64,000 bases of DNA. It comes from a bacterium. GTDB lineage: Bacteria; SZUA-182; DTGQ01; JAFGSM01. The notes beneath the pieces are model-generated. The model was given only the letters and a program-made list of their open reading frames with translations. It did not search any database and had not been told where the DNA came from. Positions within the stretch are counted from its first letter, which is position 1, and every line of letters begins with the position of its first letter. Below are positions 45,948 through 63,306 of this stretch, piece by piece. The stretch is taken from NCBI GenBank assembly GCA_049472335.1, contig JBLIRO010000001.1, positions 12,225 to 76,224 on the forward strand. The letters are read 5' to 3'. Made by a program: the position numbers and the translations under genes.

Positions 45948-48900
45948 TCAATAGAATCTGGGATCAGGAGAATGTGGAGCTGAAATTACCCCCCCTGATT
46001 GTGGTCTTCGAAAAGATGGGGAAGGTAAATGTATATGGTCAGGTGCTGTTTTGTCTATAATAGACCCTCCGGCTATAGTTACCGTCCTTATAGTAATTCC
46101 TCTAACTATTTTGTGAGAAATAGAAGTTGCAATTCCTGTTGCCGCTCCCCATATTAATCCTGCACCCATTGTACTAATCATAGGGATTGGATCTACCATT
46201 GGATTACGATTAATACCAATTTCATCTATTATGTTTCCACTTGGATCACGTGTAATCCATTCATTATCAGATGGAAGTTGATTTTTGGGTGAAGGATCTA
46301 GCCAATACGCTGGATTATTAAGAATTTCTTTTGGTGATGTGATATTCCCCCTTTCAGTAGTCTCATCCTTTGGTGAAAGTAAAGGACGTCCGTCATCTTT
46401 ACATGGCTTTTTACATAATCCTAGTGCATCGACAAAGTTAACCGGATTATTCCCCACATACCGATACAAATTAATATCCCCACCAGCAAACCCAATCGGA
46501 TCGGGGGTCAAGAATCTTCCAATTTTCGGATCATAGTACCTTGCTCGATAATAGTATAGTCCACTTTCTGGATCGTATTCTCTGCCAGTATAGGTGTATG
46601 GATTATTCAAAGCACTGGTTTGATCTACTATATTTCCAAAGGAATCGTAGGTGTATTCCTGTTGGGTATTTCCATAAATATCAAGAACTTGCACTATGCT
46701 TCCTAAAGCATCAAATAGGTAATAATATGAAATATCTCCTTGCTCCATTTGGATTGGTTCATCAATACCAAGGCCATGAGTGTAACGGGATGAGATATTG
46801 AAGCTGCCATTCAGGATAAATATAATATCTTCGTCATCATAGATATAATAGGTTTTAACACCATTCACTTCTTTGCAAATTCTTCTACCCAATCCATCGT
46901 AGTAGTAAAAAATGTTATTATTAGAAGTGTTAATTCCTATCAACCGATTTTCAGAATTATAGGTATAGTTTGTAGCTTGGCCTGTGGACTTATTGGTCTT
47001 TCGGGTAAGGCAACCATTAGTATATTGATATGTAAAATCCCCATCATCAAGAAGCCTGTTCCCTGTATCATAGCTCCAACCGGATGTGAGAGCAGAAGAG
47101 AGACGATTTCCCGCTGTATCGTAAGTAAAGGTTTCTGTATCAATGGATGGATGAGCCGCCTGGAGCAACTGATTGAGTTTATCATAGATATAATCATGAT
47201 CACCATCCAGATCTGTCATCTTTGTGCGATTCCCTACTGCATCATATTCATAGCTATAACCGGATATAGTAAATGAATCGAGATTATGATTCAGAGAAGA
47301 AAGATCACCATTGGAATTATAGCTGTAAAGAGAGGAGAGATTATTGGGTAATGTTTTTGAAGTTCTTCGGTTATTTTGATCATATGTAAAGCTTGTAGTC
47401 TGGCCATTTGGATCTGTAATTGTAGTAGGACTATCGAGTTCATTATAGGTGTAATTGGTTACCGAGCCATAGGGATCGGTAATACTCAACCGATTACCAT
47501 TGGAATCATAGGTGTAAGTGATTGTTGTTTGTGGTTGATAGGCGCTGGCTGCCGTCCGGGCAGTAATGGGCCGATTATTATTGTCATAGCTGAAGGAGAG
47601 AGAAGAAAAGGGATTGGTAATGCCGATGATATTGTCCACCTGATCGTAGCTATAAGTAGTCATGCTTCCATCAGCCAAAATCTTTTTTGTCATGCGGTCA
47701 AGACTGTCATACTCATAGTTTATTTTGTCGCTGTTATAGAGTGTTTTTTGAATCAGGTTTCCATTCTTATCATAAGTATAAAATTCTTGCTCTCCTAAAG
47801 GATTAGTCATAGACACCTTACGATTTAGATTATCATAGCTAAAGGTGGTGGTCTGCCCTTTGGCATCGGTAATGGCAAGAAGATTGCCATTTCCATCATA
47901 AACAAATGTGGTTTGACCATTGAGTGGATCGATAGTTTTTATCATCCGATTCTCTAAGTCGTATTCATAGTAAAAAGTATTCCCTTTTGCATTGGTCATA
48001 GAGATGCGATTTCCCATAGCGTCATAGGTATAAGTTGTCTGATTGCCAAGCGGATCGGTCTCTTTGATTAAACGGTTAAGGGCATCGTATTCATAAGCAG
48101 TAGTGGCGCCTTTTGCGTCCATGCTGGTCAAGATATTATCATTGTTGTCATATGTGTAAGTGATTTCATTCCCTAAAGGATCTATGATCTTGACAAGCCT
48201 GTCTTTGCTGTCATATTGGTATTGAGTTGTATTCCCATTTGCATTTGTCATAGAGATACGATTTCCCATAGCGTCATAAGTAAAACTTATTTGCCCTCCT
48301 TCGGGATCAATAAGATTTGTTAAATTATTCATAGCATCATAGGCATAAGTGGTAATATGTCCTAATGAATCAGTAACTGAGATTATATTTCCCGCAGCAT
48401 CATAGGTGTAAGAGGTTACATTTCCCAGGGCATCGGTTTTTTTAATCATATTGCCAAATGAATCATATTCATAAGTGGTAGTGGCACCATTGGCATTTGT
48501 AATAGTATGAACAAGCCCGTTGCTGTAATAGGTCATGGTTGTTGTATGACCAATCGGGTTTGTGACTTTGACTGGATTTCCCTTGGTATCGTAATTAAAG
48601 GTAGTGACCCTGCCTAAGGGATCGGTTATGGTTTTAACTTTATTGAAGGTGCTCTCATACGTATAGATAGTGGTATTCCCTTCTCTATCTGTATAAAAAA
48701 GAAGATTGCCTTTATCATCATATCCTTTTTGGACGGTGGCACCATCAGGGGTATGGATTTTAGTGACATTACCTGATTCCGTATCACGTTCATATGTTGT
48801 GACATTATTTAAAGCATCTGTTTTACTCAATAAGCGTCCATATTTATCTGTTTTCATATGTGTCATATTCCCCTCAGGATCTGTGTACAGATCATCATGA

Positions 48901-51900: not shown

Positions 51901-53120
51901 TATGCCCCGGGATTTTGATCATGACAGTCTCCGCTCTCTGCCGTATAGCCATCGAAGTCCAGATCTGCCAGGTGAGGAGATGGTGCATCCTTGCCATCAC
52001 AATTTTCATCAATGCCATTCTCGGGAAAATCTGTGGCACCAGGGAAGACAGCAGGATTATTATCATCACAATCCCCTTGCCCAACTGACCAAAGATCTCC
52101 ATCGGCATCATTCAAAACACACGGAAGGTCCTCTCCGCTGCAATCCTGATCTGTATTGTCCTCACATATTTCCGCAATTCCGGGATTAATATTTGGATCG
52201 TTGTCATCACAATCTTGTGGTCCACAAGTACTTCCTTCAATAGAGAAGCCGTCACCATCGGTATCAGTACAACATATCGAATCCTTTCCATTGCAGTCCT
52301 GATCAATACCGTCTTCACAGATCTCAGAAGCGCCAGGGAAAATACTGGCATTGTTGTCATCACAGTCGCCTCCGCAGGTAGTAATATTATCTCCATCTGA
52401 ATCAAAGCCCTCATCTGTTAATGCATTGCAATTATCATCAATATTATTGCAGATTTCGTTGGCATCCGGATTTATATTTGGATCGGTATCATTGCAATCC
52501 CGAGGACCACATAAACCACTTTCAATGGCAAAACCGTCTTCATCAAAATCAGTACAAACAATAGGTCCTCCACTCCCATCAACAATTAACAGGGTTTTGT
52601 TATCTGTATTACTTAGGAGAATCCAATATCCTTTGGAAGGTTCAAGATATTCGGATTCAAGGATTCGTTTATATCCAATCCCTCTTACATAGCCATATAT
52701 CACTTCAATATTGCCATTTTGCACTGAAGCCTTAGCAGGACATGTACAACCACCAATCATAAGCCATCCATCCTCAGATATTGTTTGGTTATACGATTGA
52801 AAGATTGTACCGTTTACACTATATGCTTGGTTTTGATCTAATAGTATCCAATAGCCCTTACCACTCTCGAGTTCTTCATTGTCGGCAACTCGAACATACC
52901 CTATCCCCTTTTTATAACCATAAATAACAACTGCACCAGGGAACAATGATGAAACATAGGCGTTTACAGGTATAACTGGAAGTGAAATCATACTCCAACC
53001 TGCAGGGAAATCCAGATTATTACTTATATTTTCTGCTCCGGCATAAGGAAGATAAACTATTAATAAAGCTATCAATACAAAACAAAAAGACATATAAAAG
53101 ACATTAGTGTTATTTTTCAT
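45948..53120 (-). CDS. Giant secreted teneurin-like polymorphic-toxin protein: Cys-rich MopE-type repeats + carboxypeptidase-regulatory (TTR-like) domain + NHL beta-propeller + YD-repeat shell + RHS core + C-terminal variable domain
   Basis: The 2390-aa product has a signal peptide from the ATG at 53120 (RBS GGGGA). It carries five DxDGDG...DCDD...CDGxDxDC repeats. The NHL repeats read …NLYIADxxNxRIRRVD…IAGTG…GYSGDGGPAT. There are many YD repeats (YTYDxxGN). The RHS core ends …YYDPKIGRFLTPDPIGFAGGDINLYRYVGNNPVNFVDALGL, followed by about 170 aa of unrelated C-terminus. Confidence 0.85.
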   Translation of the reverse strand: MKNNTNVFYMSFCFVLIALLIVYLPYAGAENISNNLDFPAGWSMISLPVIPVNAYVSSLFPGAVVIYGYKKGIGYVRVADNEELESGKGYWILLDQNQAYSVNGTIFQSYNQTISEDGWLMIGGCTCPAKASVQNGNIEVIYGYVRGIGYKRILESEYLEPSKGYWILLSNTDNKTLLIVDGSGGPIVCTDFDEDGFAIESGLCGPRDCNDTDPNINPDANEICNNIDDNCNALTDEGFDSDGDNITTCGGDCDDNNASIFPGASEICEDGIDQDCNGKDSICCTDTDGDGFSIEGSTCGPQDCDDNDPNINPGIAEICEDNTDQDCSGEDLPCVLNDADGDLWSVGQGDCDDNNPAVFPGATDFPENGIDENCDGKDAPSPHLADLDFDGYTAESGDCHDQNPGAYPGATEIQCNGIDEDCNGSDLCYLTPTIVEKSGFIDGEVFDARTEAPLESATIKMANVGQMMTDANGKFSFPTPKEGFYLILIEKEGYTYAQRRIHVQSGYDFAVEPIYLVPIDPVTVTITPEDGGTLINSTGDVELHFEVNSVTEAVNVSATRLYDNRELPGDLPPTSHFTTAVKLTPDGLTLEKPTRILVENSLGFAPGTPVPVGYYRKDLGRWVPDGMGVITEDGKYMEYFVVHFSSYDLNYGSRPSSSSEALKKIPVKNTSRKKNNPASSDKDGKGGCKVIYKDGELIEDYHLPAYNSIGASHTVSLFYRSNSADPKAMISLEYEMDSNQVALIEKVEFKVNIGGINTSRVFLPKNDNISFRYLFDGTNFRGEKLPSGGFPYLIELINWCPAYYNAAPWFASQSGGLVLDSLGNPIRAPRDFPLKREFKGKISIDNRINSPIGAGWSIAELQRIYGNSYDNYVTLVSGSGEKLYFDTGGTIKTYVKDFQGPITQETFNTPNGIAADAEGNLYIADSNNQRIVRVDPTGVVSIIAGTGTIGYSGDGGPATQASIFYPWGIAVDRAGNIYFSDYGNHSIRRINPAGIITTIAGTGTAGYSGDGGLATQASFNSPTGISVDAAGNVYIADRENDRVRRIDPAGIITTYAGNGIRGYSGDGGPATQASLNRPFNAETDAAGNLYISDRDNSCIRRVDTSTGIITTIAGTGIRGYSGDGGPATQACLRNPCGVEVDGSYIYIADFSNNRIRRVDPNGIITTIAGTGTRGYSGDGGPPTEADLDWPRMVKIDGAGNLYIADLINHCIRIIKDIGFGIRTSELSSPEGDYSKLTRHDDGTYTRIMKDGTTYQFNAKGLQTSKTDTNGRTTTYAYDANDRLASITDPADLVTAFTYNGHNLASISDPAGRTTQFSHDADNNLIKIIAPDGSNTNFTYDNQHLMTSKTDPLGRTTQFNYNIHGMVNSVVWPDEGIDQYAPSDGSGLINDLPENIGTYRNPVSVQLPHDDLYTDPEGNMTHMKTDKYGRLLSKTDALNNVTTYERDTESGNVTKIHTPDGATVQKGYDDKGNLLFYTDREGNTTIYTYESTFNKVKTITDPLGRVTTFNYDTKGNPVKVTNPIGHTTTMTYYSNGLVHTITNANGATTTYEYDSFGNMIKKTDALGNVTSYTYDAAGNIISVTDSLGHITTYAYDAMNNLTNLIDPEGGQISFTYDAMGNRISMTNANGNTTQYQYDSKDRLVKIIDPLGNEITYTYDNNDNILTSMDAKGATTAYEYDALNRLIKETDPLGNQTTYTYDAMGNRISMTNAKGNTFYYEYDLENRMIKTIDPLNGQTTFVYDGNGNLLAITDAKGQTTTFSYDNLNRKVSMTNPLGEQEFYTYDKNGNLIQKTLYNSDKINYEYDSLDRMTKKILADGSMTTYSYDQVDNIIGITNPFSSLSFSYDNNNRPITARTAASAYQPQTTITYTYDSNGNRLSITDPYGSVTNYTYNELDSPTTITDPNGQTTSFTYDQNNRRTSKTLPNNLSSLYSYNSNGDLSSLNHNLDSFTISGYSYEYDAVGNRTKMTDLDGDHDYIYDKLNQLLQAAHPSIDTETFTYDTAGNRLSSALTSGWSYDTGNRLLDDGDFTYQYTNGCLTRKTNKSTGQATNYTYNSENRLIGINTSNNNIFYYYDGLGRRICKEVNGVKTYYIYDDEDIIFILNGSFNISSRYTHGLGIDEPIQMEQGDISYYYLFDALGSIVQVLDIYGNTQQEYTYDSFGNIVDQTSALNNPYTYTGREYDPESGLYYYRARYYDPKIGRFLTPDPIGFAGGDINLYRYVGNNPVNFVDALGLCKKPCKDDGRPLLSPKDETTERGNITSPKEILNNPAYWLDPSPKNQLPSDNEWITRDPSGNIIDEIGINRNPMVDPIPMISTMGAGLIWGAATGIATSISHKIVRGITIRTVTIAGGSIIDKTAPDHIHLPSPSFRRPQSGGVISAPHSPDPRFY

Positions 53121-53480
53121 AGCATTCCCCTTAAATAAATTTATTTCATTGCCATTAAATTTCATAAGGAATTGCTTTAAAATAAATAATGAATAGGATT
53201 TGCTTTCCTGTATAAAAGTATAAGCAGAGCTTTCGACTTTTGTTTAAAAAGCTCCTATCTGCATCGTATAGCTCATTTACTAAAATATGGAAGATTTTTA
53301 ATGTCTCACAAACATATCAAATCGCTTGCAAAAAAACAACTGTAGAAGCAGTTTCCAACTAATTATTTTTTTTATAAACTTTTATCCTTCGGTGTGATCC
53401 ATAGATCATGAGTGTTTAGCAAAAGATGAATCTGGTAAATTTCAATCTCTGGCTAAGAAAAAAGAGATAGATGAAATCAT

Positions 53481-53567
53481 CTATCTCTTTTTTGCAATGA
53501 ATAAGGCATTGATATCATTATCAGTAAAATAATGGATTGCCAGCCTTAATATTAGTCTTGGTCTTCA
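53481..53567 (-). CDS. Tiny ORF (28 aa, GTG start) VKTKTNIKAGNPLFYCNDINALFIAKKR, a paralogue of the neighbouring 19-aa ORF
   Basis: The SD GGGGGTG lies 9 nt upstream. The N-terminus matches the 53655-53714 ORF with mainly synonymous differences. The 3' end overlaps an A/T-rich palindrome (53458-53493). Confidence 0.35.
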
Positions 53568-53654
53568 CTTTTAATTCACCCCCTTTTTATTGGAAGAAGA
53601 ACGTGTCACAAGGTCTTTTTCAATATATAATCTTGAGTTTTAAAAGATTAGTGT

Positions 53655-53714
53655 TTAGTATGACCACCAGGGTTTGACATCCACTCCGGCTTTAATGTAG
53701 GTTTTGGTCTTCAT
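53655..53714 (-). CDS. Tiny ORF (19 aa) MKTKTYIKAGVDVKPWWSY with a strong Shine–Dalgarno site
   Basis: The SD AGGAGGTG lies 7 nt upstream of the ATG. The paralogue 90 nt downstream conserves the first 10 aa. Confidence 0.45.
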   Translation of the reverse strand: MKTKTYIKAGVDVKPWWSY

Positions 53715-53885
53715 TCCAATTCACCTCCTTTTTTGCTTTCTGATTTAATAGACGAACAAAAATTATTTTTTCCTTTTTAGATTTTTTATTTTGGGACAAG
53801 CTGATTTTTTTCTACTGCAGAATGACCTTTTACGATCCTATCATTACTGAGAAATCATGGGAATTTGCCTATTGGGAAAAAAACA

Positions 53886-53915
53886 CTTGCATACGTCTAT
53901 TAGAATGAGATATAA
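53886..53915 (+). promoter_or_regulatory. Candidate sigma70-type promoter (TTGCAT-N18-TATAAA) for the HlyD–ABC cassette
   Basis: Hexamers spaced 18 nt apart lie about 30 nt upstream of the ATG at 53946. Confidence 0.25.
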
Positions 53916-53945
53916 AAATCATAGTTGACAAAACAGGGAGATTTT

Positions 53946-55496
53946 ATGTCCTTTACCCGGTCCCTCAGATTTATATATACTGAAAGATCTCGTCTTCCTT
54001 TATGGGGAATCTTTATTCTTATCATTCTCCTTACCTGCTGGATGGTATGGTTTTCTTCCGTAAAGATTCCCATTTATACAATGACGGATTCAGCCCGCCT
54101 AGAAGTGGATCAGGCTTCACACCCCATACAAACATCCATTGATGGAAAGATCACAGAGATTTCCATGAAGCTCGGACAGGAGGTCCAGGTTGGAACAATC
54201 CTGGTCAGATTGGATGATCAGTCCCTTCAGTTGAGAAGAAAAGAAGCGCTGGACCGGTTCAACTCTCTCTCCGCCGAAGCATCGGCCCTGGAAAAACAGA
54301 TATCCCAGGAAGAAATGCTCCTTGAAGAGGAAGGAAAAATCGTCCTTATAAAACTTCAGGAGGCGCGATCCCGTTATCAAGAAGGAGAGATAGCGGCAGT
54401 ATTCGCGGAGGATGAAGTCAAACGTTTAAACAAGCTTTTCACCCAGGGGGCACTATCTGAGTCAAAACTTTTACACGCTAAATCCGAAGCCGAAAAGAAA
54501 AGGGCGTCTGCAGAAGCGCTTCGTATCGCCCTTGACAGGCTAAGAGGGGAATGTCAGGTCCAGGAGAAGAGACGCCAAACGCGCTTGAGTCAACTCAGGC
54601 AGCAACTGCTTCACATTCAGGGAGAGATTCAGAACAGCGCCACGGTAATGGAGCAGCTCGACTGGGAGATTGAGAAGCACCTTATCAGGACTCTGGTGGC
54701 CGGCGAAATTGCCGAGATTGCCGACCTTCATCTCGGGATGTTTATTGAAGAAGGATATAGGCTAGGCGCCATTCTGCCCCAGGGCAAGCTCCGTGTGGTG
54801 GCATATTTTGAGCCGGCAGTCGCCCTTGGCAAGGTTCACCCCGGCCAGAAGGCTCATCTGAGGATGAAGGGCTTTTCCTGGCTGGAATACGGCCGGGTGG
54901 CGGCAAGGGTCCAGAAGGTAAGCCAGGAGATCCGCCACGGACAGTTGCGGGTCGATCTGGAGGTCGACGATAAGGACAGCCCCATCCCTCTGCAGCATGG
55001 TCAGCCGGTAAGGGTCGAGATTGAAACCGAAAGGATTACCCCAGCAACACTGGTTCTGCGAAAAGCGGGAAATGTCTTTTCCCCCGGGTCTCCTTCCGTT
55101 TCCATCAATAATCATTCCCTGACCGTGGAAGTTGTTGCCACCAGAGCAGCAAGACAGCGGGGCCTGATGTACCGGGAAATGCTTCCGGCCGATCATGGGA
55201 TGTTGTTTGTTTTCCCAAGGGAAGGCCCTCTTTCATTCTTGATGAAAGATACGTTTATCCCGCTCAGTATAGCCTTTCTTAATTCCGAAGGGATCATCCT
55301 GAAGATTATGAAAATGTATGTTGAACCTACGAATAATGAAGCGTTGTCTAGAACATATGCCACGGACCCTCATGCGCCTGCTATGTATGCCCTGGAAGTG
55401 AATCAGGGCTGGTTTGAAAGCCATGGGGTTAGACGTGGAAACCGGGTAAAAGGTCTCAAACGATTGAATATCGGCTTTGTAGAATCCCAGGCCTGA
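53946..55496 (+). CDS. HlyD-family periplasmic adaptor (type I / bacteriocin secretion) fused to a C-terminal DUF192/UPF0127 domain
   Basis: The N-terminal TM helix, lipoyl-like domain, long coiled coil and beta-barrel are typical of HlyD. The C-terminal ~110 aa (…RGLMYREMLPADHGMLFVFPREGPLSFLMKDTFIPLSIAFLNSEGII…YALEVNQGWF…GNRV) match the UPF0127/DUF192 consensus. Confidence 0.75.
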   Translation: MSFTRSLRFIYTERSRLPLWGIFILIILLTCWMVWFSSVKIPIYTMTDSARLEVDQASHPIQTSIDGKITEISMKLGQEVQVGTILVRLDDQSLQLRRKEALDRFNSLSAEASALEKQISQEEMLLEEEGKIVLIKLQEARSRYQEGEIAAVFAEDEVKRLNKLFTQGALSESKLLHAKSEAEKKRASAEALRIALDRLRGECQVQEKRRQTRLSQLRQQLLHIQGEIQNSATVMEQLDWEIEKHLIRTLVAGEIAEIADLHLGMFIEEGYRLGAILPQGKLRVVAYFEPAVALGKVHPGQKAHLRMKGFSWLEYGRVAARVQKVSQEIRHGQLRVDLEVDDKDSPIPLQHGQPVRVEIETERITPATLVLRKAGNVFSPGSPSVSINNHSLTVEVVATRAARQRGLMYREMLPADHGMLFVFPREGPLSFLMKDTFIPLSIAFLNSEGIILKIMKMYVEPTNNEALSRTYATDPHAPAMYALEVNQGWFESHGVRRGNRVKGLKRLNIGFVESQA

Positions 55497-55520: not shown

Positions 55521-58262
55521 ATGCTTGTTTCTCTTATCAAAAAACAGAAAAAATCTTTTATCCCGGAGGTCATTCAAAGCTCGGCCATGGATTGCGGTCC
55601 GGCTTCGCTCAAGGCCCTTCTGGAAGGATTCGGCATCCCGGTAAGTTATGGGCGGCTCCGCGAAGCATGTCAGACCAGTGTGGATGGAACGTCCATTGAC
55701 ACACTGGAGGAAGTTTCCAATCAGCTCGGCCTTGAAGCAGAGGAGATCATGCTCCCCCCGGATCACTTCTTTCTCCCGGAAGCGAAGGCCCTGCCCGCTA
55801 TAGTCGTGGTCCGGCTCCCAAGCGGTGTGACCCATTTTGTAGTGGTCTGGGAACGCCATGGCCCTTTTGTACAGGTCATGGACCCGGGCAGCGGAAGACG
55901 CTGGGTCACCTATAAACAGTTCATGAAGGAGGTTTATATCCACCGCATGCCCGTTTCTGCCTCTCTTTGGAGGGAATGGGCAGGATCTGAGGCCTTTCTC
56001 TCTCCCTTCAAAAGGCGCCTGACTCAGCTTGGGATTTCTCAAAGGGAGCAAAAGGAGCTCATTCATCATTCCCTTTCAGACCCTGGCTGGTATCATCTTG
56101 GTGTCCTGGATGCCGCCACCCGAATGGTGGATGCCCTCATGAAAGCCGGTGGACTGCAAAGAGGTCGGGAAGCGGCAAAGGTGCTTCAAACATTTGTCCC
56201 GGAATCCCTTTCAAAGGGTCCTTTTCAGGAATCTCCCATCCCTCCCGTTTACTGGTCCATCCAGCCCATGCCTTCAGCCAGTGACGGGGAGGAGGAACAA
56301 CTGATCCTCAAGGGAATGGTCCTTGTAAGGGTATCAGGCCGCCGTTCGATCCCCTCTGATCAAAAGAAGCAGGATTTTACAGAAAAGGCTCCCCTCCCCC
56401 TGGAGCTTGAGGCAGCCCTTAAAGAACCTCCGGTCAAGCCGGGAAGGGAAATCTTAAGATTCCTCCGGGCCGATGGCATCCTGACTCCCTTAGCCCTGGG
56501 TTTTGCCTTTATTCTTGTATCCTTTGGCTTTATTCTGGAGGCCATATTATTGCGGAGCCTTTTTGAGATCGGAAGGGACCTGAACCTGATAGAACAAAGA
56601 TTAGGCGCAATGGGGGCCCTTATCATCTTTTCCCTTGCCCTGCTGTTGTTAGAGCTCCCTATTGGCTCATGCATCTTAAAACTGGGGCGGCATCTGGAAT
56701 CCCGGCTCAGGATAGCGTTTTTGCAAAAGCTCCCCCGGCTTCAGGACCGCTATTTCCAGAGCCGGCTCAATTCGGACATGGCGGAACGATCTCACAGTGT
56801 TAACAAGATAAGGCTTTTACCCGGATTGGGCAGCCGGTTTGTACGCTCTATAATAGAGTTCTTCATCACTGCCGCGGCCATTGTGTGGCTCTTTCCGGAA
56901 AGTCTTTTAATAGTCCTGGCAGGCGTTTTCCTCACCATCATTATACCGCTTGCCAGCCTGTCATTCCTCACGGAAAGGGACCTTCGGGTACGAAGCCATC
57001 TGGGGGCCTTAAGCCGTTTTTACCTGGATACACTTCTGGGGCTTGTCCCCACGAGGGCACATAGCGCTCAAAAACCTATATGCAGGGAACATGAAAGCAT
57101 GCTCGTGGAATGGAGCAGGGCAAGCCTTCGTAATGTGATCGCTGTACTGACTGTGGAGGCAGTTCAGGACCTGATCGGGTTCGGTATCGCCTTCTGGCTG
57201 CTCCTGCACTATTATAAACGGGGAGGGCCTGAAAGCGGCGTACTTCTCCTGGTTTACTGGGGTCTACATCTATCCGCGCTGGGCCAGGAAATTATAAAAA
57301 CAGCCCGCCAGTATCCTACCCATCGCAATATCGCCCTGCGTCTCATGGAGCCTTTAGGGGCTCCTGAAGAAAACTCCTCCCGGGGAGGGGATTTGTCCCA
57401 AACGAAGGACTCATCTCCTTCAAAAAACAATCTTTCTCATGGGATCTCCATATCCATGGAAGGGGTGGGTATAAAGATCTCCGGTCACAACATATTAGAA
57501 GGCGTGGACCTTGCCATTCCGCCCGGTGCCCATTTCGCAATCATCGGACCATCCGGAGCTGGAAAATCAAGCCTGGTCGGCCTTCTCCTGGACTGGTACC
57601 GTCCGTCCGCGGGAAAGATCCTGATCAATGGAAGGCCTCTTACACCTGAAGTATTGGAAAATATGCGCAAGTCCACCGCCTGGATCGATCCGGCTATACA
57701 GCTTTGGAACCGCTCCCTTATAAAGAACATTTACTACGGCATCGATCCTGAATCAGCCTCTCCTGCCGGAATGGTCATGGAAGAGGCCCAGCTTATGGAA
57801 CTTCTGGAGAAATTACCTCAAGGCCTGGGAACAATCCTGGGAGAAGGCGGAGCACTGGTTTCCGGAGGGGAAGGCCAAAGGGTGCGCCTGGCACGGGCCA
57901 TGGCAAAGGGCGATGTCCGTCTTGTAATCCTGGATGAGCCATTTCGGGGGCTCGACCATCAAAAAAGGGATGAGCTTCTCAATAAGGCCCGCTGCCTCTG
58001 GAAGGATGCCACCCTGATCTGCATTACGCACGATATCAGCGCCACAAAGAGCTTTGACAGGGTCATTGTCATAGAGCATGGGAAGATTGTCGAGCAGGGG
58101 GCCCCGAAAGACCTCGCGGAAAAGGCGGATTCCTTTTACCGGAAATATCTGGATTTTGAAAAAGCGGTCACAGAAGAGATTTGGCGTAAATCATTGTGGA
58201 GGAGGATCTCCATCAAAAAGGGAAGGATTATAGAGGAGGGAGTCCCTGATGGAAAGGTTTGA
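55521..58262 (+). CDS. Peptidase-C39-domain ABC transporter (bacteriocin/peptide processing-export, permease + ATPase)
   Basis: The C39 catalytic Cys (SAMDCGPASL) and His (THFVVVW) are present, followed by six TM helices. The ATPase carries Walker A GPSGAGKSS, signature LSGGEGQR and Walker B LVILDE. Confidence 0.85.
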   Translation: MLVSLIKKQKKSFIPEVIQSSAMDCGPASLKALLEGFGIPVSYGRLREACQTSVDGTSIDTLEEVSNQLGLEAEEIMLPPDHFFLPEAKALPAIVVVRLPSGVTHFVVVWERHGPFVQVMDPGSGRRWVTYKQFMKEVYIHRMPVSASLWREWAGSEAFLSPFKRRLTQLGISQREQKELIHHSLSDPGWYHLGVLDAATRMVDALMKAGGLQRGREAAKVLQTFVPESLSKGPFQESPIPPVYWSIQPMPSASDGEEEQLILKGMVLVRVSGRRSIPSDQKKQDFTEKAPLPLELEAALKEPPVKPGREILRFLRADGILTPLALGFAFILVSFGFILEAILLRSLFEIGRDLNLIEQRLGAMGALIIFSLALLLLELPIGSCILKLGRHLESRLRIAFLQKLPRLQDRYFQSRLNSDMAERSHSVNKIRLLPGLGSRFVRSIIEFFITAAAIVWLFPESLLIVLAGVFLTIIIPLASLSFLTERDLRVRSHLGALSRFYLDTLLGLVPTRAHSAQKPICREHESMLVEWSRASLRNVIAVLTVEAVQDLIGFGIAFWLLLHYYKRGGPESGVLLLVYWGLHLSALGQEIIKTARQYPTHRNIALRLMEPLGAPEENSSRGGDLSQTKDSSPSKNNLSHGISISMEGVGIKISGHNILEGVDLAIPPGAHFAIIGPSGAGKSSLVGLLLDWYRPSAGKILINGRPLTPEVLENMRKSTAWIDPAIQLWNRSLIKNIYYGIDPESASPAGMVMEEAQLMELLEKLPQGLGTILGEGGALVSGGEGQRVRLARAMAKGDVRLVILDEPFRGLDHQKRDELLNKARCLWKDATLICITHDISATKSFDRVIVIEHGKIVEQGAPKDLAEKADSFYRKYLDFEKAVTEEIWRKSLWRRISIKKGRIIEEGVPDGKV

Positions 58263-60369
58263 TATCCTCTACTGGCCTGTCTCCAGACTGGGAGAGGCAC
58301 TAAAGCTTATGGGTGAAATAAGCGGCCTTTCTCCGAAGCCTGAGGAAATCCCTTTGGCCCCTAAAGGGACTAGTGAGAACGAGGACTCCATCTCGGAATG
58401 GATCGAAGCCCTGGCGCAATGGATAGGCATTGAAGCCGAGCCGATGGAGGTCAGCTACGGGGATGTGGAAACATTTATCCTGCGGTCGGCCCCGGCCCTC
58501 ATCCGTCTGCCGGGGGATGGCTCTCCATCCTTTTTTGCACTTCTTGGACAGAAAAAGAAAAAGGCCCTTGTTTTAGGAAAAGACGGGGGCATTCACCCCA
58601 TGGAGGTATCTCACATTGCAAAGATGCTTTGCGGGCCCATGGAGGAAATGCTGGGGCCGCAGATCGAAGATCTGTTAAACAGGGCAGAGATCCCGGAAAA
58701 AAAGAGGGCCGGAATCAAACAGGAGCTTCTTTCCACCCATCTTTCACCTGTTTTGTTAAAGGGATTCTGGCTGCTCCGCCTTGCACCATACCGGGGCTTT
58801 TTTAAGACCCTGTTCCAGGCAAAGGTGATCTTCCCTTTTTTTACCTTTCTCCTTGTCCACACCTTCCAATATCTCTTATGGATACTCTCCTGGTGGGTTA
58901 TAGGAAAAGGGGCGCTTGAGGGCCACCTGCATCTGGAATGGATCATGGGATGGGGGCTTCTCCTTTTGAGCCTTGTTCCCTTAAAGGCCCTTGTGACATG
59001 GGCCGAAGGGCGCCTGGCCATAGGAGTGGGCGGGGTGTTTAAACAGAGGTTACTCTATGGCGCCATGCGTATAGAACCGGATGACATCCGGCACCTTGGA
59101 TCAGGTGCCCTCCTGGGGCGTGTTTTCGAATCAGAAGCCCTGGAATCCCTGGCCCTGAGCGGGGGATTTACAGCGATCCTCGCCCTGGTGGAGCTTATCA
59201 TCTCTCTCGCTGTCCTCATGATAGGTGCAGCCGCGTGGCTTCATACACTGTTTTTTATCCTATGGATGGCCATATTTTCGGTTATACTTTTAAAGTACTT
59301 GAAAGCCCATAAGCTCTGGGTAGAAGGCCGTATCCGGATGACGAACGACCTGGTGGAAAAGATGGCAGGGCATCGGACAAGGCTCACCCAGGAAGCAAAA
59401 GAGCGTTGGCATCAGGGAGAGGATGAAGCCTTGGAGGAGTATCTAAAACAATCAAAGAGGTTAGACCGGTCTTCCCTCCTGATCATGTCCCTTATCTCAA
59501 GGGGATGGATGGTCCTGGGCCTGACCGGACTTGCCCCTGCCTTTGTCCGGGGCGTTTCTCCCGCCTATCTGGCGATCAGCCTGGGAGGAGTGCTGCTGGT
59601 ATATAAGGCACTTAAAAGCCTCTCTGTCAGCCTTGTGCAGCTCATCGGGGCATTCGTAGCATGGAAATACGTATCTCCCTTTTTATATGCAGCCGGCAAA
59701 CCCGAAGAGACAGGGGTCCCCACGTGGACAAAAGCCCGGGAAGACCTTTCGGAAAAGGACCCCCTTCTGGTATCAAGGCACCTGTTTTTTCATTACCCTA
59801 ACCGAAGGGATCCCGTCATTCAGGATAGTGACCTTTCCATCTATTGGGGTGACAAGATACTGCTTGAAGGCCCCTCCGGATGCGGGAAGTCCACCTTGAG
59901 CGCCATCTTATCCAACCTGCGCGATCCCAAGGGAGGCATAATTCTCCTGCACGGACTGGACCGGAACATCCTGGGAAGGAAAAACTGGCACAAATCCGTG
60001 TGCGTTGCACCTCAATTTCATGAAAACCATGTGTTTACAGAAACCTTTGCCTTCAATCTGCTGATGGGGCATCGATGGCCTCCCCGGCCGGAAGATATGC
60101 AGGAGGCAGAAACCATCTGCCATGAGCTCGGACTCAGCGAGGTCCTTTTAAGGATGCCAGCGGGACTGCTCCAGATGGTTGGAGATACCGGATGGCAGCT
60201 CTCCCATGGGGAAAAAAGCCGCCTTTACATGGCAAGGGCCCTTCTCCAAAAGGCGGACCTTATCATCCTGGATGAAACCTTTGCCGCTCTGGACCCCCAG
60301 ACCCTTGAACAATGTCTGCAATGTGTGCTTCGCCGGGCCAAAACCCTTCTGGTGATCACCCATCGTTAA
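58249..60369 (+). CDS. Second ABC transporter (permease + ATPase) with a degenerate, Cys-less N-terminal C39-like domain
   Basis: Carries Walker A GPSGCGKST, signature LSHGEKSR and Walker B LIILDE. It is translationally coupled to the upstream ABC gene and has a strong RBS AGAGGAGGG. Confidence 0.8.
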   Translation: MERFDILYWPVSRLGEALKLMGEISGLSPKPEEIPLAPKGTSENEDSISEWIEALAQWIGIEAEPMEVSYGDVETFILRSAPALIRLPGDGSPSFFALLGQKKKKALVLGKDGGIHPMEVSHIAKMLCGPMEEMLGPQIEDLLNRAEIPEKKRAGIKQELLSTHLSPVLLKGFWLLRLAPYRGFFKTLFQAKVIFPFFTFLLVHTFQYLLWILSWWVIGKGALEGHLHLEWIMGWGLLLLSLVPLKALVTWAEGRLAIGVGGVFKQRLLYGAMRIEPDDIRHLGSGALLGRVFESEALESLALSGGFTAILALVELIISLAVLMIGAAAWLHTLFFILWMAIFSVILLKYLKAHKLWVEGRIRMTNDLVEKMAGHRTRLTQEAKERWHQGEDEALEEYLKQSKRLDRSSLLIMSLISRGWMVLGLTGLAPAFVRGVSPAYLAISLGGVLLVYKALKSLSVSLVQLIGAFVAWKYVSPFLYAAGKPEETGVPTWTKAREDLSEKDPLLVSRHLFFHYPNRRDPVIQDSDLSIYWGDKILLEGPSGCGKSTLSAILSNLRDPKGGIILLHGLDRNILGRKNWHKSVCVAPQFHENHVFTETFAFNLLMGHRWPPRPEDMQEAETICHELGLSEVLLRMPAGLLQMVGDTGWQLSHGEKSRLYMARALLQKADLIILDETFAALDPQTLEQCLQCVLRRAKTLLVITHR

Positions 60370-60504
60370 CCAAAAAATGACCATAAGGATTTACTAAAAA
60401 ATCCTTCTTGACAAAAGGCATCTTCCAGGGATGAAAGTCATCGGTACCAAAATTTCAATCCTAAAGCACCCATTTCATATTCTGTTTTAATACGCATTTT
60501 GTAA

Positions 60505-60714
60505 TCAGCCATAAAGGGGAATTCCTTTTTGTTGAATGAGTTGGATAAATTTAGAAGTTTCTGAAAGATCAACTATGTCAAGAGGTTTTGCCAGTGCAAA
60601 TAAAAGATCACCATTAAATTTATAAAAATCCTTTGGACTTATTCCTTCAATAGCCAAATCAATATCTGTGCTTTCTTTGGCAGGCAATAGACAAGAGCTA
60701 AAAAAGCAATACAC
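60505..60714 (-). pseudogene. Truncated nucleotidyltransferase-domain (MntA-like) fragment
   Basis: The segment ...STDIDLAIEGISPKDFYKFNGDLLFALAKPLDIVDL... is a nucleotidyltransferase C-terminal part. The GS motif is missing and an in-frame stop lies immediately upstream. Confidence 0.3.
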
Positions 60715-60953
60715 GTTTTATATATATTTTCTGGATATGTCTTCTATTATTTTTTTTCTGCCTCAGTAATCAAGGGGAAATTGGGCATGAATTATTTTGA
60801 TAATGAGAAATTAGTGCGACAACTTTGACGTTACCGTGGTTACCGGGTTGAGATCTTGACAAAAATTAAAAATTATGCATATATTTTATATTTTGGAAAG
60901 TAAATTTATATTTATTATCAATATCAATAAATACAATAAAAAAGGAGAATATA

Positions 60954-62393
60954 ATGGCTATGCAAAGGATTCGGGAATATAGCGTTTCCCCCCTTATTAC
61001 TGGCGTCTGGATTCTCGTTTCTATTGGTTTGATAAGAATGTGGCCTTTAAAGACAGTGGAAGCTAAAACTATTCGGCCCAATATTATGATCATCTTTGAC
61101 ACCTCAGGAAGTATGCAGTGGGATGTAAATGGATTAACACTAGACATACCAGATTCACAAGGGCGAAAATATGGCTCCCATGAAGACAGCCGTCTTTCCA
61201 TCACAAAAAGCGTTATTACTGATGTGCTTAATGAGACCAGAACCCTTGCGAACTTCGGTCTTATGACGTTTCTTCAGACCCATTATAACTTAACATCATC
61301 ATCAAATGGATATTTCCCATACTATAAGGCATATAACGGATCTACGGTCACAAAAACCATGTACTTCTCGAAGGAGGTTTTAAACATAAATCAATATACA
61401 GTTGATGGCGTATCCGATCAAAAGGCAAGCAGTGGCAGTCCATGCTATAAGCCGGTCAATTCCTTTGAGTATAATGGGATCAATTATACACTTAGGGCTG
61501 TCAATAACAGCAAGTATCAGAGAGATGTGGGAGACTCGGGGAAAAAAGAGGTGGATCACGACTACTGCTCTCCCTGTGGTAATAAGTGCATGTTTGCCGA
61601 CCCTGATGATGGAATTACCTACAAATGGCTATATCAGGGTAGTTACTACGAATATGAAGAGATGCCGGTCGCAAGTTATACAATTTATCATTTCAAAAAA
61701 TACTATGGCCGGCAGTTCAAGGCATTGGGCACAGAAGACCTAAATGGAGGCTGTAATCTTCCGGTAGATCCCGATGATGTATTTGTATATTATAGCGGAG
61801 TAAACAATATCGACTTTTTATATCCCAATACTGCGCCCTGGGCGTGGCCCATTTATCCGGTTGGAGCAACATACGCAGATGACACAAACCGGGGCGGGGT
61901 TGTGCTTGTACCCTTTTCATTTTCCAGCGACCAGGATGATCAGGAAATGAAAGTCAATGATATCCTTCAGTGGATGGGGCCTCAGACTGCAGGGGGATTG
62001 ATCGCAACCGGATATACACCGACCGGTTCCACTCTCAGCAACGACACAACAGCAAAAGGCTACTATAATGATTTTAAGGAATACTTTCTTGCAGAGGTCA
62101 ATCCGAATGATCCCATTGAGAATAGAATGAACTGTATCCTTTTTATTACCGATGGAGAACCCACCCCTTTATCCGAGGGAAATATGGCAATCACTAATGC
62201 AATGCATCTCTATCAGGATTATGAAATAAGAGTCTATATGGTGGGATTTGGATCAGATGCTGCAGGGAGTGCTACGATAGATGACATTGCGGAAGCCGGA
62301 GGATGCCCCCTAAAACCGGATGGACATTATGCTTACTATGCAAATAATGCTGAGGAACTGAGAGCATCTCTTAGAGATATTATCAATCAATAA
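60954..62393 (+). CDS. von Willebrand factor A (VWA) domain protein with a large insertion in the domain (PilY1-N-terminal-like)
   Basis: The MIDAS motif IIFDTSGSM is separated from ...CILFITDGEPT by about 300 aa. An N-terminal TM/signal sequence is present, with an RBS AAAGGAGA. Confidence 0.55.
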   Translation: MAMQRIREYSVSPLITGVWILVSIGLIRMWPLKTVEAKTIRPNIMIIFDTSGSMQWDVNGLTLDIPDSQGRKYGSHEDSRLSITKSVITDVLNETRTLANFGLMTFLQTHYNLTSSSNGYFPYYKAYNGSTVTKTMYFSKEVLNINQYTVDGVSDQKASSGSPCYKPVNSFEYNGINYTLRAVNNSKYQRDVGDSGKKEVDHDYCSPCGNKCMFADPDDGITYKWLYQGSYYEYEEMPVASYTIYHFKKYYGRQFKALGTEDLNGGCNLPVDPDDVFVYYSGVNNIDFLYPNTAPWAWPIYPVGATYADDTNRGGVVLVPFSFSSDQDDQEMKVNDILQWMGPQTAGGLIATGYTPTGSTLSNDTTAKGYYNDFKEYFLAEVNPNDPIENRMNCILFITDGEPTPLSEGNMAITNAMHLYQDYEIRVYMVGFGSDAAGSATIDDIAEAGGCPLKPDGHYAYYANNAEELRASLRDIINQ

Positions 62394-62520
62394 GGCATTA
62401 GAAGGTGAACCCTTGTAAGGGTGATTTCCAAGTAGCCTGATACAGTTTCTTTTATTTGATAAGAGTTTCAAACAAACGGTCCGCCGGCCACATCGGAAGA
62501 GCCCATTTCAATATTGATTA

Positions 62521-62965
62521 ATAAGATTGGAAATACATATTTCCCTTTTTATATGCAGCCGGCTAGTCCGAAGAGACAGGTGTTCCTGTATGGACGAAAG
62601 ACCGGGAAACCTTTGCCTTCAACCTGCTGATGGGACACCGATGGCCACCCCGGCCGGAAGATATGCAGGAGGCCGAAACCATCTGCCATGAGCTCGGACT
62701 CAGTGAGGTCCTTTTAAGGATGCCCGCTGGACTGTTACAGATGGTGGGAGATACCGGGTGGCAGCTCTCCCATGGGGAAAAAAGCCGCCTTTATATGGCA
62801 AGGGCGCTTCTTCAAAGGGCGGACCTTATCATCCTGGATGAAACCTTTGCAGCACTTGCCCCCCAGACCCTCGAACAATGCCGGCAATGTGTCTTAGCCG
62901 GGCCAAAACCCTTCTGGTTATCAACCACCGTTAATTAAAACCATAACCATAAGGATTTACCCACA
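62521..62965 (+). pseudogene. Decayed partial duplicate of the 3' end of the ABC gene at 58249-60369
   Basis: Nucleotide identity to 59664-60395 is high but interrupted by an internal ~287-bp deletion at an AACCTTTG microhomology and a 1-bp frameshift near the end. The identity extends 25 nt past the stop codon. Confidence 0.75.
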
Positions 62966-63306
62966 GGTGCCTTGGGGATACATTGAGCCAGGGCCTGAGA
63001 ATTTGGATATCATTCAGTTCGGCACCCGCCGGATCCCGTATTTCCTTCATCGAGCTGTCTGCAAACCTACCCGGAAAAATTTAAGGATAGAAGAATTAAT
63101 AGTAAGAAATATCCGATAGCATAAAGAAAAAGTAAAATTTTAAATGTTTATTTTTAAGTCTGACTTCTGAGTTTCAGAATACATTCAGAATATCTTTTTG
63201 TTTAATAAAAATTAGAGCCTGACAAATTATAAATTCTTTAACTAAAAAGGAATGTCCTTAACCATTAAATATATGGGCTAATTACTTTAAATCTTAAAAA
63301 ATTTTT

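What the first reader, a model, noticed from the sequence alone, without database searches (positions are those of the whole stretch)
59664..62965. VWA gene and nucleotidyltransferase fragment flanked by a decayed direct duplication of the ABC gene's 3' end: footprint of a Campbell-type insertion?
The sequence 62521-62965 copies 59664-60395 (the last ~235 codons of the second ABC gene plus 25 nt past its stop). The copy has an internal ~287-bp deletion between AACCTTTG microhomologies and a 1-bp indel that changes the last 13 codons. Between the two copies lie ~2.1 kb holding a truncated MntA-like nucleotidyltransferase fragment and a complete VWA-domain gene with its own RBS. Flanking direct repeats of several hundred bp are expected when a circular element carrying a homologous segment integrates by single crossover, or after tandem duplication and replacement. 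Either way this marks recent rearrangement, and the VWA gene is likely acquired cargo.
Basis: seen in the sequence. Interest (0 to 1): 0.55.

Follow-up and report, generated by a model that had tools for sequence, protein, structure and literature searches.

The report
Displaced 3' end of exporter gene
A decaying copy of the last third of an ABC peptide-exporter gene sits 2.1 kb downstream of the intact gene, and similar leftovers in related genomes suggest that this gene's 3' end is repeatedly used as a homology anchor when foreign DNA recombines in.

Summary
Window 62528-62960 copies 59662-60394, the last 235 codons of the second ABC gene plus 25 nt (BLAST E 3e-138). The copy has a 300-bp internal deletion, a 1-nt deletion and an in-frame TAG. 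An independent Logan contig spans both inner junctions.

It is neither recent nor a simple in-place duplicate. The copies differ by 8-17%, mostly at synonymous sites (dN/dS about 0.26 on the remnant branch), so the remnant was probably part of a working gene for much of its history.

The pattern recurs:
- A more decayed fragment is annotated seven proteins further along the same contig.
- The relative L002 has an 84-nt remnant behind a peptide-gene cassette.
- L169 carries three such fragments in series, separated by HigBA and AbiE toxin-antitoxin modules. Two of them differ almost only synonymously (dN/dS 0.10, p 3e-10).

In L168, ABC2 and the VWA gene are already linked, so VWA is not demonstrably fresh cargo.

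Best reading: diverged alleles recombined in using ABC2 homology as an anchor (Campbell-type or one-sided illegitimate joining), each time pushing the old 3' end downstream. This resembles the orphan arrays of Rhs and T6SS loci. No recombinase is present. The exact mechanism stays unresolved. Interest is moderate.

The parts
53521..53568 (-). Short precursor-peptide gene, MKTKTNIKAG-NPLFY. It is the likely substrate of the exporter.
   Evidence: Strong RBS. The same 10-aa leader appears next to this operon type in several other fetched loci, including L002, L015, L035, L059, L098, L130 and L150.
53655..53714 (-). Short precursor-peptide gene, MKTKTYIKAG-VDVKPWWSY.
   Evidence: The CGTCTATTA motif lies upstream of it.
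53925..55496 (+). HlyD-type adaptor fused to DUF192; first gene of the exporter operon.
   Evidence: Pfam HlyD_3 and DUF192.
55521..58262 (+). ABC transporter containing a C39 peptidase domain (ABC1).
   Evidence: Pfam Peptidase_C39, ABC_membrane and ABC_tran. The best NCBIfam hit is NHLM_micro_ABC1, far below its cut-off.
58249..60369 (+). Intact second ABC gene (ABC2, 706 aa).
   Evidence: Pfam ABC_tran. It is 100% identical to NCBI protein MGA1839036.1.
59662..60394 (+). Repeat copy 1: ABC2 codons 472-706 plus 25 nt of 3' flank.
59740..60039 (+). 300-bp segment, including Walker A, that is missing from the remnant.
   Evidence: Offsets of 2866 and 2566 between the aligned blocks. Microhomology at the breakpoints.
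60385..60406 (+). Hairpin AAGGATTT-ACTAAA-AAATCCTT just past the ABC2 stop. The repeat ends inside its loop, at 60394.
   Evidence: Read directly from the sequence. Window 60382-60414 reappears directly after the VWA gene in L168, with borderline significance.
60505..60714 (-). N-terminally truncated minimal nucleotidyltransferase (MntA-like) fragment. It is followed by a 24-codon ORF that overlaps it (60512-60438).
   Evidence: Pfam Polbeta E 0.0018 and NCBIfam MntA E 0.0013, both below cut-off. In L168 only 97 nt of it remain.
60856..60885 (+). Promoter-like site upstream of the VWA gene (TTGACA-18-TATATT, 11 of 12 matches).
   Evidence: It is conserved in L168.
60954..62393 (+). Complete 479-aa secreted or membrane-anchored VWA-like protein with the MIDAS motifs DTSGS, TPTGST and ITDGE.
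   Evidence: Pfam VWA 19.4 bits against a cut-off of 23.8. NCBIfam CglB N-terminal region, E 1e-8. Only 6 homologues found. Homology to L162 and L164 is confined to 60916-62420, and to L168 to 60786-62446.
62447..62527 (.). 81 nt of unknown origin between the end of VWA-locus homology and the start of the remnant.
   Evidence: No match in the window or in any of the fetched loci.
62528..62960 (+). Remnant R: a pseudogene fragment of an ABC2 allele. It has a TAG at 62564-62566, the 300-bp deletion junction at 62605/62606 and a 1-nt deletion at 62892/62893. NCBI annotates it as the 91-aa protein MGA1839039.1.
62961..63110 (.). Moderately GC-rich (46%) stretch of unknown origin after the remnant. 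It is presumably the old allele's own downstream flank. The TPM-domain gene starts at 63308.
   Evidence: GC values. No similarity to L002, L169 or L168 flanks. TPM Pfam hit.

Best explanation
R (62528-62960) is the displaced, now decaying 3' end of an earlier functional allele of the ABC2 exporter gene.

Proposed sequence of events:
1. DNA carrying a homologous but roughly 8-10% diverged copy of the exporter gene recombined into the locus. It brought different downstream DNA with it: a toxin-antitoxin-type remnant and the VWA gene.
2. ABC2 homology served as the anchor. The event was either a single crossover of a circular molecule or integrated replicon (Campbell type), or a homologous crossover on one side with an illegitimate join on the other.
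3. The incoming copy now supplies the intact 3' end. The old 3' end, with its own flank, was pushed 2.1 kb downstream.
4. The old copy then lost 300 bp between GAAACCTTT repeats and acquired a stop codon and a frameshift.

The process has happened repeatedly in this clade, leaving series of remnants that grow older with distance.

Shown:
- the repeat and its lesions
- the excess of synonymous differences
- further remnants in the same contig and in two relatives
- toxin-antitoxin or peptide-gene cargo between remnants

Inferred:
- that foreign DNA was the source
- which recombination route was used
- which copy was the resident one
For: 1. Anatomy: one complete gene plus one 5'-truncated copy in direct orientation. 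Homology runs through the stop codon to +25 nt and is then lost.

2. Functional past of R. With outgroups L002 and L166, the R branch has 13 synonymous and 11 non-synonymous changes over 92.7 and 300.3 sites. That gives dN/dS 0.26, Fisher p 0.0008. The ABC2 branch has 10 and 0. Rejection of 'neutral from birth' holds across mutation models, with p from 0.0005 to 0.014. Substitutions on the R branch are denser in the variable linker (9 of 78) than in the conserved nucleotide-binding core (10 of 287), p 0.009.

3. R is not a copy of the present ABC2. W, R and the L168 orthologue are about equidistant (90.2%, 92.1% and 89.7% identity). R shares linker states with L168 and P0008.

4. Recurrence:
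- P0131 (MGA1839046.1), seven protein accessions after R on the same 153.8-kb contig, is another ABC2 C-terminal fragment. It has 13-14 changes in 125 aa, against 5 in 109 for R.
- L002 has an 84-nt remnant 510 nt after its ABC2, with two peptide genes and a terminator in between.
- L169 has three fragments on one strand, separated by HigBA and AbiE modules. Similarity to ABC2 falls along the series (84.7%, 77.5% and 54% aa; F3 is only about 54 residues). F1 and F2 differ at 22 third-position sites against 8 first- and second-position sites, dN/dS 0.10, p 3e-10.

5. The remnants start at different codons (472, about 557-569, about 672, 682), so there is no single att site.

6. Published precedents for the same logic are rhs C-terminal displacement (PMC2935791) and sequential displacement of T6SS effector-immunity modules by homology-facilitated illegitimate recombination (PMC5361080).
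Against: - No donor, empty site or intact R-type allele was found. The metagenome and genome scans gave only one close genome.
- With the most conservative polarisation, which uses L168, the selection signal on R alone weakens to p 0.03-0.14.
- The position and orientation of the second fragment (P0131) are known only from protein accession order. Its DNA could not be fetched.
- Divergence between W and L168 along ABC2 shows no breakpoint that would mark a chimeric gene.
- In L168 a 33-nt piece of the window's ABC2 3' flank sits right after the VWA gene. If real, this hints that a second ABC2 end already lay behind VWA before the two lineages split, which fits less easily with R's low dN.
- Documented homology-facilitated illegitimate recombination usually deletes recipient DNA rather than duplicating the anchor. 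This statement rests on my own knowledge.
Confidence: 0.6

Rival explanations
1. Purely intragenomic segmental duplication. The whole exporter operon, or at least all of ABC2, was duplicated in tandem by unequal crossing-over, perhaps between the repeated peptide-gene units. The extra copy stayed functional for a time and was then deleted from its 5' side, leaving R. No foreign DNA is involved.
For: This explains the direct orientation and the functional past of R. Peptide-gene units with a conserved promoter motif, RBS and leader flank the operon in direct orientation in L002 and could drive unequal exchange. The possible trace of an ABC2 3' flank after VWA in L168 would fit a two-copy ancestor.
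Against: It requires redundant copies to be kept under purifying selection for a synonymous divergence of about 0.25 (window) and about 0.24 (L169 F1 against F2). In L169 it requires three or more copies. The segments between remnants are all different (VWA, TPM genes, HigBA, AbiE, peptide genes), so many extra deletions and insertions are needed. The sequence after R is unrelated to the sequence after ABC2 beyond +25 nt.
Confidence: 0.22
2. In-place tandem duplication of only the fragment 59662-62527, or Campbell re-insertion of a circle excised from the same genome, followed by deletion of the second copy's downstream part. On this view R was never functional and all of its differences reflect neutral decay.
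For: It needs the fewest types of event. The 300-bp deletion, the stop codon, the frameshift and hits to conserved residues (D682A, L690R) show real neutral decay.
Against: Synonymous differences are about three times more frequent than expected. Of the 34 resolved W-R differences, 23 are synonymous, against an expected fraction of 0.38-0.47 (p 0.0005-0.014). At third codon positions R is as far from ABC2 as the L168 orthologue is. In L169 the analogous fragments show dN/dS 0.10.
Confidence: 0.1
3. Site-specific integration of a mobile element into the 3' end of ABC2. The element carries a surrogate 3' end, so the two repeats would be attL and attR.
For: The target gene stays intact and the displaced 3' end lies at the far side of the insert, as happens with islands in tRNA genes and in the 3' ends of protein genes (own knowledge). 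Toxin-antitoxin modules are typical island cargo.
Against: No integrase, transposase or excisionase lies in the insert or next to it. There is no tRNA or other RNA gene. The remnants begin at different codons in every case. The repeats are hundreds of bp long and diverged, without a discrete identical core.
Confidence: 0.05
4. Assembly artefact: a chimeric join or a strain variant inserted in tandem.
For: The source is a metagenome-assembled genome.
Against: The copies differ by 8-17% and carry distinct lesions. An independent Logan contig covers both inner junctions and the deletion junction. Comparable structures occur in other assemblies: L002 (NCBI) and L169 (JGI).
Confidence: 0.02

Closest known systems
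C-terminal displacement and orphan 3' fragments at rhs and cdiA loci (Jackson et al. 2009, PMC2935791)
   Same: An intact gene is followed, on the same strand, by one or more 5'-truncated copies of its 3' end. Decay increases with distance. New DNA is thought to enter by recombination anchored in the conserved part of the gene.
   Different: Here the displaced piece is the conserved nucleotide-binding domain of an ABC exporter, not a polymorphic toxin tip. No immunity genes are attached. The variable material lies downstream: short peptide genes, toxin-antitoxin modules and a VWA gene.
Sequential displacement of T6SS effector-immunity modules in Vibrio cholerae, proposed to occur by homology-facilitated illegitimate recombination (Kirchberger et al. 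2017, PMC5361080)
   Same: There is a one-sided homology anchor, successive insertions push older pieces downstream (including 3' ends of older genes), and no integrase is involved.
   Different: The locus type is different. In V. cholerae the retained pieces are useful immunity genes. Here the retained ABC fragments appear useless, although in L169 and L002 they drag peptide genes along with them.
Campbell-type integration of a circular DNA or plasmid carrying a homologous segment
   Same: Direct repeats of the homologous segment flank the inserted DNA. One copy is complete and the other is truncated at the edge of the cloned homology.
   Different: No replicon or selection functions remain in the insert. 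The repeats are old and diverged. A circular intermediate is inferred, not observed.
Tandem genomic islands at tRNA or tmRNA genes bounded by partial 3' gene repeats (own knowledge)
   Same: There are serial partial 3' copies of the target gene, with island-type cargo such as toxin-antitoxin modules in between.
   Different: Those islands use a tyrosine integrase and a fixed crossover site. Here there is no integrase and the remnant start points vary.

Membership tests
Campbell-type (single-crossover homologous) integration footprint | Direct repeats of the homologous segment flank the insert; one copy is complete and the other is 5'-truncated. | tested here: met
   59662-60394 against 62528-62960, same strand, with intact ABC2 upstream.
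Campbell-type (single-crossover homologous) integration footprint | The insert carries functions of a circular element (replication, mobilisation, recombinase). | tested here: not met
   The insert holds only a nucleotidyltransferase fragment and the VWA gene. There are no Pfam, NCBIfam or PADLOC hits to such functions.
Campbell-type (single-crossover homologous) integration footprint | Relatives show an empty site, that is, ABC2 joined directly to the sequence that follows the remnant. | tested here: inconclusive
   No locus with the window's post-remnant flank was found. L168 lacks R but has a different downstream sequence.
Sequential displacement / orphan 3'-fragment array (rhs, cdiA, T6SS effector-immunity type) | An intact gene is followed by two or more 5'-truncated 3' fragments on the same strand. 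| tested here: inconclusive
   R is on the same strand. The second fragment, P0131, is known only as a protein seven accessions downstream, so its strand is unknown. L169 shows three fragments on one strand, but its intact gene is not on the contig.
Sequential displacement / orphan 3'-fragment array (rhs, cdiA, T6SS effector-immunity type) | The fragments derive from once-functional, diverged alleles (synonymous excess), and decay increases with distance. | tested here: met
   R branch dN/dS 0.26. L169 F1 against F2 dN/dS 0.10, p 3e-10. Amino-acid changes: R 5 of 109, P0131 13 of 125. Similarity to ABC2 falls along the L169 series: F1 84.7%, F2 77.5%, F3 54% aa.
Sequential displacement / orphan 3'-fragment array (rhs, cdiA, T6SS effector-immunity type) | The displaced fragments encode polymorphic toxin tips with cognate immunity genes. 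| tested here: not met
   The fragments are the conserved ABC nucleotide-binding domain. The neighbours are toxin-antitoxin modules, peptide genes and VWA.
Site-specific integrative island (attL/attR) | A tyrosine or serine recombinase lies next to the repeats, and the crossover core is fixed. | tested here: not met
   No recombinase is present. Remnants start at codons 472, about 557-569, about 672 and 682. There is no tRNA gene.
Tandem segmental duplication of a gene fragment | The second copy is followed by the same sequence as the first, and it diverges neutrally from birth. | tested here: not met
   Homology stops 25 nt after the stop codon. The synonymous excess gives p 0.0005-0.014.
VWA (von Willebrand factor A) domain proteins | The Pfam VWA score reaches the gathering threshold. 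| tested here: not met
   19.4 bits against a cut-off of 23.8.
VWA (von Willebrand factor A) domain proteins | MIDAS motif DxSxS...T...D embedded in an alternating beta-alpha fold. | tested here: inconclusive
   DTSGS (49-53), TPTGST (353-358) and ITDGE (398-402) are present and conserved in the homologues. The AlphaFold model has mean pLDDT of only 40, although its secondary structure alternates strand and helix with a beta-rich insert.
MntA (type VII TA adenylyltransferase antitoxin) | The NCBIfam or Pfam score reaches the cut-off and the GSxxxD...DxD core is complete. | tested here: not met
   18.6 bits against 60, and 18.9 against 26.9. The N-terminal 30 or so residues are missing. It is 'MntA-like' only as a lead.
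NHLP/Nif11-type bacteriocin export system (TIGR03794, TIGR03796, TIGR03797) | The equivalog scores reach the curated cut-offs. | tested here: not met
   36, 185 and 97 bits against 156, 853 and 709. The architecture is the same (adaptor, C39-ABC, ABC), but this is a different family. The substrates appear to be 15-20-aa peptides.

The most novel reading that the evidence does not exclude
The conserved 3' end of ABC2 serves as an integrase-free, RecA-dependent capture site. Diverged alleles arrive with new downstream cassettes: hypervariable short exported peptides of the MKTKTxVKAG / MKQKTGVKCG family, toxin-antitoxin modules and accessory genes. Each arrival displaces the previous 3' end and builds an orphan array. 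The toxin-antitoxin modules between the direct repeats stabilise each insert against loss by repeat recombination. This would be a peptide-export counterpart of polymorphic-toxin orphan arrays.
Probability: 0.3. Interest if true: 0.6.

Novelty: new variant of a known kind. Interest (0 to 1): 0.42.

Why it matters
If the serial-displacement reading holds, loci for exported short peptides diversify by the same anchor-and-displace logic known for Rhs, CDI and T6SS toxin loci. Here the anchor would be a conserved transporter gene and no dedicated recombinase would be needed. The remnants would then act as a dated record of past allele replacements and of the cargo that arrived with them. That would give a way to measure gene flow at such loci in uncultured bacteria. 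For annotation, it shows that the two short 'ATP-binding cassette domain-containing proteins' in the deposited genome (MGA1839039.1 and MGA1839046.1) are pseudogene fragments.

Tried and rejected
- Global MAFFT alignment of the two copies misplaced the first block. A gapped local alignment replaced it.
- Scans of metagenome contigs and genome contigs with ABC2 found no relative closer than L002 (80% aa). All other hits were at 50% aa or below.
- Exact-protein look-ups for the source contig (P0007, P0131) failed, and the DNA of P0008 (92% aa) was not available. The second remnant and the nearest allele could therefore be studied only as proteins.
- A tblastn scan of 160 operon loci for extra 3' fragments found only L002.
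- I first read the raw 25 synonymous to 11 non-synonymous codon ratio as decisive. Polarising with outgroups showed that part of it belongs to the functional copy's branch, so I re-tested with site counts and mutation models.
- A sliding-window search for a chimeric breakpoint in ABC2 against L168 found none.
- I tested whether the stretch after the remnant (62961-63140) hides a decayed convergent peptide gene like those in L169 and L002. There was no significant similarity.
- The 33-nt match between the window's ABC2 3' flank and L168's post-VWA sequence is borderline (score 21.5 against a shuffle maximum of 21). It is left unexplained.
- The many 101- and 123-aa ABC ORFs in the protein database looked like widespread remnants. 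The one example I looked up (L170) was only a split ABC2 gene.
- Searches for tRNA genes, Rfam families and PADLOC models gave nothing.
- The VWA structure prediction was too poor (pLDDT 40) to justify a fold search.
- Literature searches for the peptide leader strings returned nothing.

Full report

Yes. Window 62528-62960 is a direct copy of 59662-60394. This is the last 235 codons of the second ABC gene (ABC2, 58249-60369) plus 25 nt past its stop.

A gapped local alignment gives four collinear blocks of 83%, 92%, 88% and 89% identity. The repeat finder reports the same pieces. BLAST of the main block gives E 2.7e-138, and no other repeat of this kind exists between 53-64 kb and the whole window.

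The copy carries several lesions:
- It lacks exactly 300 bp (59740-60039, including Walker A).
- It lacks one base after 60326, which shifts the last 14 codons.
- It has an in-frame TAG at 62564-62566.

The deletion endpoints show only imperfect microhomology in today's ABC2. They would be a perfect 9-nt GAAACCTTT repeat if the parental allele had the RETF linker found in relative L168.

A Logan contig from run DRR851362 matches window 60295-62635 with two mismatches. A separate assembly therefore supports both inner junctions and the deletion junction.

**2. What surrounds it?**

ABC2 is the third gene of an exporter operon:
- a HlyD-type adaptor fused to DUF192 (53925-55496)
- a C39-peptidase ABC transporter (55521-58262)
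- ABC2 itself

The operon resembles the NHLP-type export systems but falls far below their curated cut-offs. It has 52% GC against 42% for the window. The remnant is also 52%, while the VWA gene is 43%.

The 2133-nt spacer holds three things:
- a hairpin just past the ABC2 stop, with the repeat ending in its loop
- an N-terminally truncated, weakly MntA-like nucleotidyltransferase fragment on the minus strand
- a complete 479-aa gene with its own promoter-like site and RBS

That protein has the MIDAS motifs of VWA domains and a weak N-terminal match to the CglB adhesin. It scores below Pfam's VWA cut-off, and its predicted structure was too poor to use. The region contains no tRNA gene, no Rfam family, no defence-system hit and no recombinase.

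**3. Was the remnant ever functional?**

The 40 differences between the copies fall 6, 7 and 27 on codon positions 1, 2 and 3.

I polarised the changes with two outgroups, L002 and L166.
- The ABC2 branch has 10 synonymous and 0 non-synonymous changes.
- The remnant branch has 13 and 11, over 92.7 and 300.3 sites. That is dN/dS 0.26, p 0.0008.

I then tested the hypothesis that the fragment has been neutral since it split from ABC2. It is rejected at p 0.0005-0.014 across transition and GC-to-AT bias models. With the most conservative polarisation, which uses L168, the signal on the remnant branch alone weakens to p 0.03-0.14.

Remnant-branch changes are also denser in the variable linker than in the conserved nucleotide-binding core, p 0.009.

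At third codon positions the remnant, the adjacent ABC2 and the L168 orthologue are about equally distant. In the linker the remnant shares states with L168 and P0008 rather than with its neighbour.

Its own non-synonymous hits strike residues that are invariant in all working homologues (D682A in the D-loop, L690R, K668R). This is ordinary decay after inactivation.

I conclude, with moderate confidence, that the remnant was part of an intact gene for much of its divergence. I also conclude that the event is not recent.

**4. Relatives**

*L002* (80% aa) is the closest genome. It carries the operon in a different context. It has its own 84-nt copy of the ABC2 end, 510 nt downstream, with two short peptide genes and a terminator in between. 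That remnant groups with L002's own ABC2, so it arose independently.

*L168* is a Logan contig with about 92-94% nucleotide identity. ABC2 and the VWA gene lie on it in the same order, separated by 7.7 kb of two-component regulator genes. Only 97 nt of the nucleotidyltransferase fragment remain. No remnant follows the VWA gene. The linkage of ABC2 and VWA is therefore older than the window lineage, and the VWA gene is not shown to be fresh cargo.

More distant VWA homologues (L162-L164) share only the gene itself. One of them sits next to a DDE transposase.

**5. The pattern repeats**

Searching with the remnant's ORF found a second ABC2 C-terminal fragment on the same 153.8-kb NCBI contig. 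It is MGA1839046.1, seven protein accessions after the remnant (MGA1839039.1). It has a frameshifted start and 13-14 changes in 125 residues, against 5 in 109 for the remnant. It is older and lies further away.

A JGI contig, L169, has three ABC2 3' fragments on one strand. They are separated by a HigBA module and an AbiEii/AbiEi module, and their similarity to ABC2 falls along the series.
- The first two units extend about 700 nt past the stop codon.
- They carry convergent short peptide genes with different cores.
- Those two truncated fragments differ at 22 third-position sites against 8 first- and second-position sites (dN/dS 0.10, p 3e-10).

Neither fragment can function, so both must derive from diverged working alleles.

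The remnants begin at different codons in every case (472, about 557-569, about 672, 682).

Among 160 more distant operon loci, only L002 showed an extra fragment. The one short ABC ORF from a distant lineage that I looked up was only a split gene. The phenomenon therefore seems confined to this clade.

**6. Explanation**

The most economical account runs as follows:
- Diverged alleles of the exporter gene repeatedly recombine into the locus, using ABC2 homology as the anchor.
- They bring their own downstream DNA with them.
- Each arrival pushes the previous 3' end downstream, where it decays.

The physical route could be Campbell-type single crossover of a circular molecule or of a replicon carrying the operon, followed by deletion. 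It could also be a homologous crossover on one side with an illegitimate join on the other. My data cannot separate these routes.

The same logic has been proposed for rhs C-terminal displacement (PMC2935791) and for T6SS effector-immunity arrays (PMC5361080).

The main rival is intragenomic tandem duplication of whole copies followed by 5' deletion. It must keep redundant copies under selection for a synonymous divergence of about 0.25, and it needs many extra steps to explain why every inter-remnant segment is different. In-place duplication of a fragment is disfavoured by the synonymous excess. Site-specific integration is disfavoured by the lack of a recombinase and of a fixed site. An assembly artefact is disfavoured by independent contigs.

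**7. Open points**

- No empty site or donor was found.
- The second fragment's strand is unknown.
- A 33-nt piece of the window's ABC2 3' flank reappears directly after the VWA gene in L168, at borderline significance. I cannot fit it cleanly into any model.

**8. Verdict**

It is wrong on recency, and unproven on the VWA gene being cargo.

The remnant itself is a non-functional pseudogene fragment. Its value lies in what it records. Interest is moderate, and it rises if the serial-displacement reading and its link to the hypervariable short peptide genes hold up.

Noticed in passing
window 53521-53568 (-) and 53655-53714 (-); L002 5888, 6214, 13082, 13198 (+) and 13612, 13726 (-); L169 10103, 10230, 11891 (-); arrays in L015, L035, L059, L130: This is a family of very short (15-29 aa) precursor-like peptide genes. 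Each has a strong RBS, a conserved 10-aa leader (MKTKTx[VI]KAG or MKQKTGVKCG) that ends in a double-glycine-like AG, SG or CG, and a hypervariable 5-11-aa core. They lie next to this HlyD / C39-ABC / ABC operon in several phyla. There is no NCBIfam hit and no literature hit for the leader strings.
   Followed up: partly
window 53746-53754 (-), 53894-53902 (+), 43784-43792 (-); also upstream of each peptide gene in L002 and L169: The motif CGTCTATTA precedes the peptide genes, the HlyD gene and the 2154-aa gene at 37187-43651. There are 3 matches in the window against 0.49 expected. It may be a shared operator or promoter element.
   Followed up: partly
outside the window, same 153.8-kb contig (protein MGA1839046.1 = P0131): A second, more decayed ABC2 C-terminal fragment is annotated as a 145-aa 'ATP-binding cassette domain-containing protein', seven protein accessions after the remnant. 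Its DNA could not be fetched.
   Followed up: partly
L169 9350-14101: Three ABC2 3' fragments lie in series, separated by complete HigB/HigA and AbiEii/AbiEi toxin-antitoxin modules. A DUF433/DUF5615 pair also lies directly after ABC2 in L170. Toxin-antitoxin modules seem to accumulate just downstream of this gene.
   Followed up: partly
L168 11016-11050 against window 60382-60414: A 33-nt piece of the window's ABC2 3' flank (part of the hairpin plus ATCCTTCTTGACAA) sits in L168 exactly where homology with the window's post-VWA sequence ends. The 14-mer is unique among the fetched loci, but the alignment score only equals the shuffle maximum.
   Followed up: partly
window 3947-6120 (+): A P-type ATPase appears split into three consecutive ORFs (3947-4387, 4324-5217 with the E1-E2 domain, 5227-6120 with the hydrolase and C-terminal domains). 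It lies in a GC-rich (about 51%) patch and is probably another pseudogene.
   Followed up: no
L162 2373-3779 and 174-290: In a metagenome relative, the VWA gene is followed by an IS4-type DDE transposase and preceded by a 38-aa fragment of a DUF3343-type (Se_S_carrier) gene. The VWA gene has a different context in the window and in each of L162, L164 and L168.
   Followed up: partly
window 53925-55496; L166 536-1684: In the window the HlyD adaptor carries a C-terminal DUF192 domain. In the 81%-identical relative L166 it does not (382 aa), and there the operon sits directly after a class II aminoacyl-tRNA synthetase gene. The operon occupies a different genomic context in each of its close relatives.
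   Followed up: no
window 45948-53165 (-) and 27839-32368 (-): There is a 2405-aa RHS-repeat protein with MopE, NHL and teneurin-like YD-shell domains immediately upstream of the peptide genes. There is also a 1509-aa multihaem cytochrome (MtrC/c7-like).
   Followed up: no
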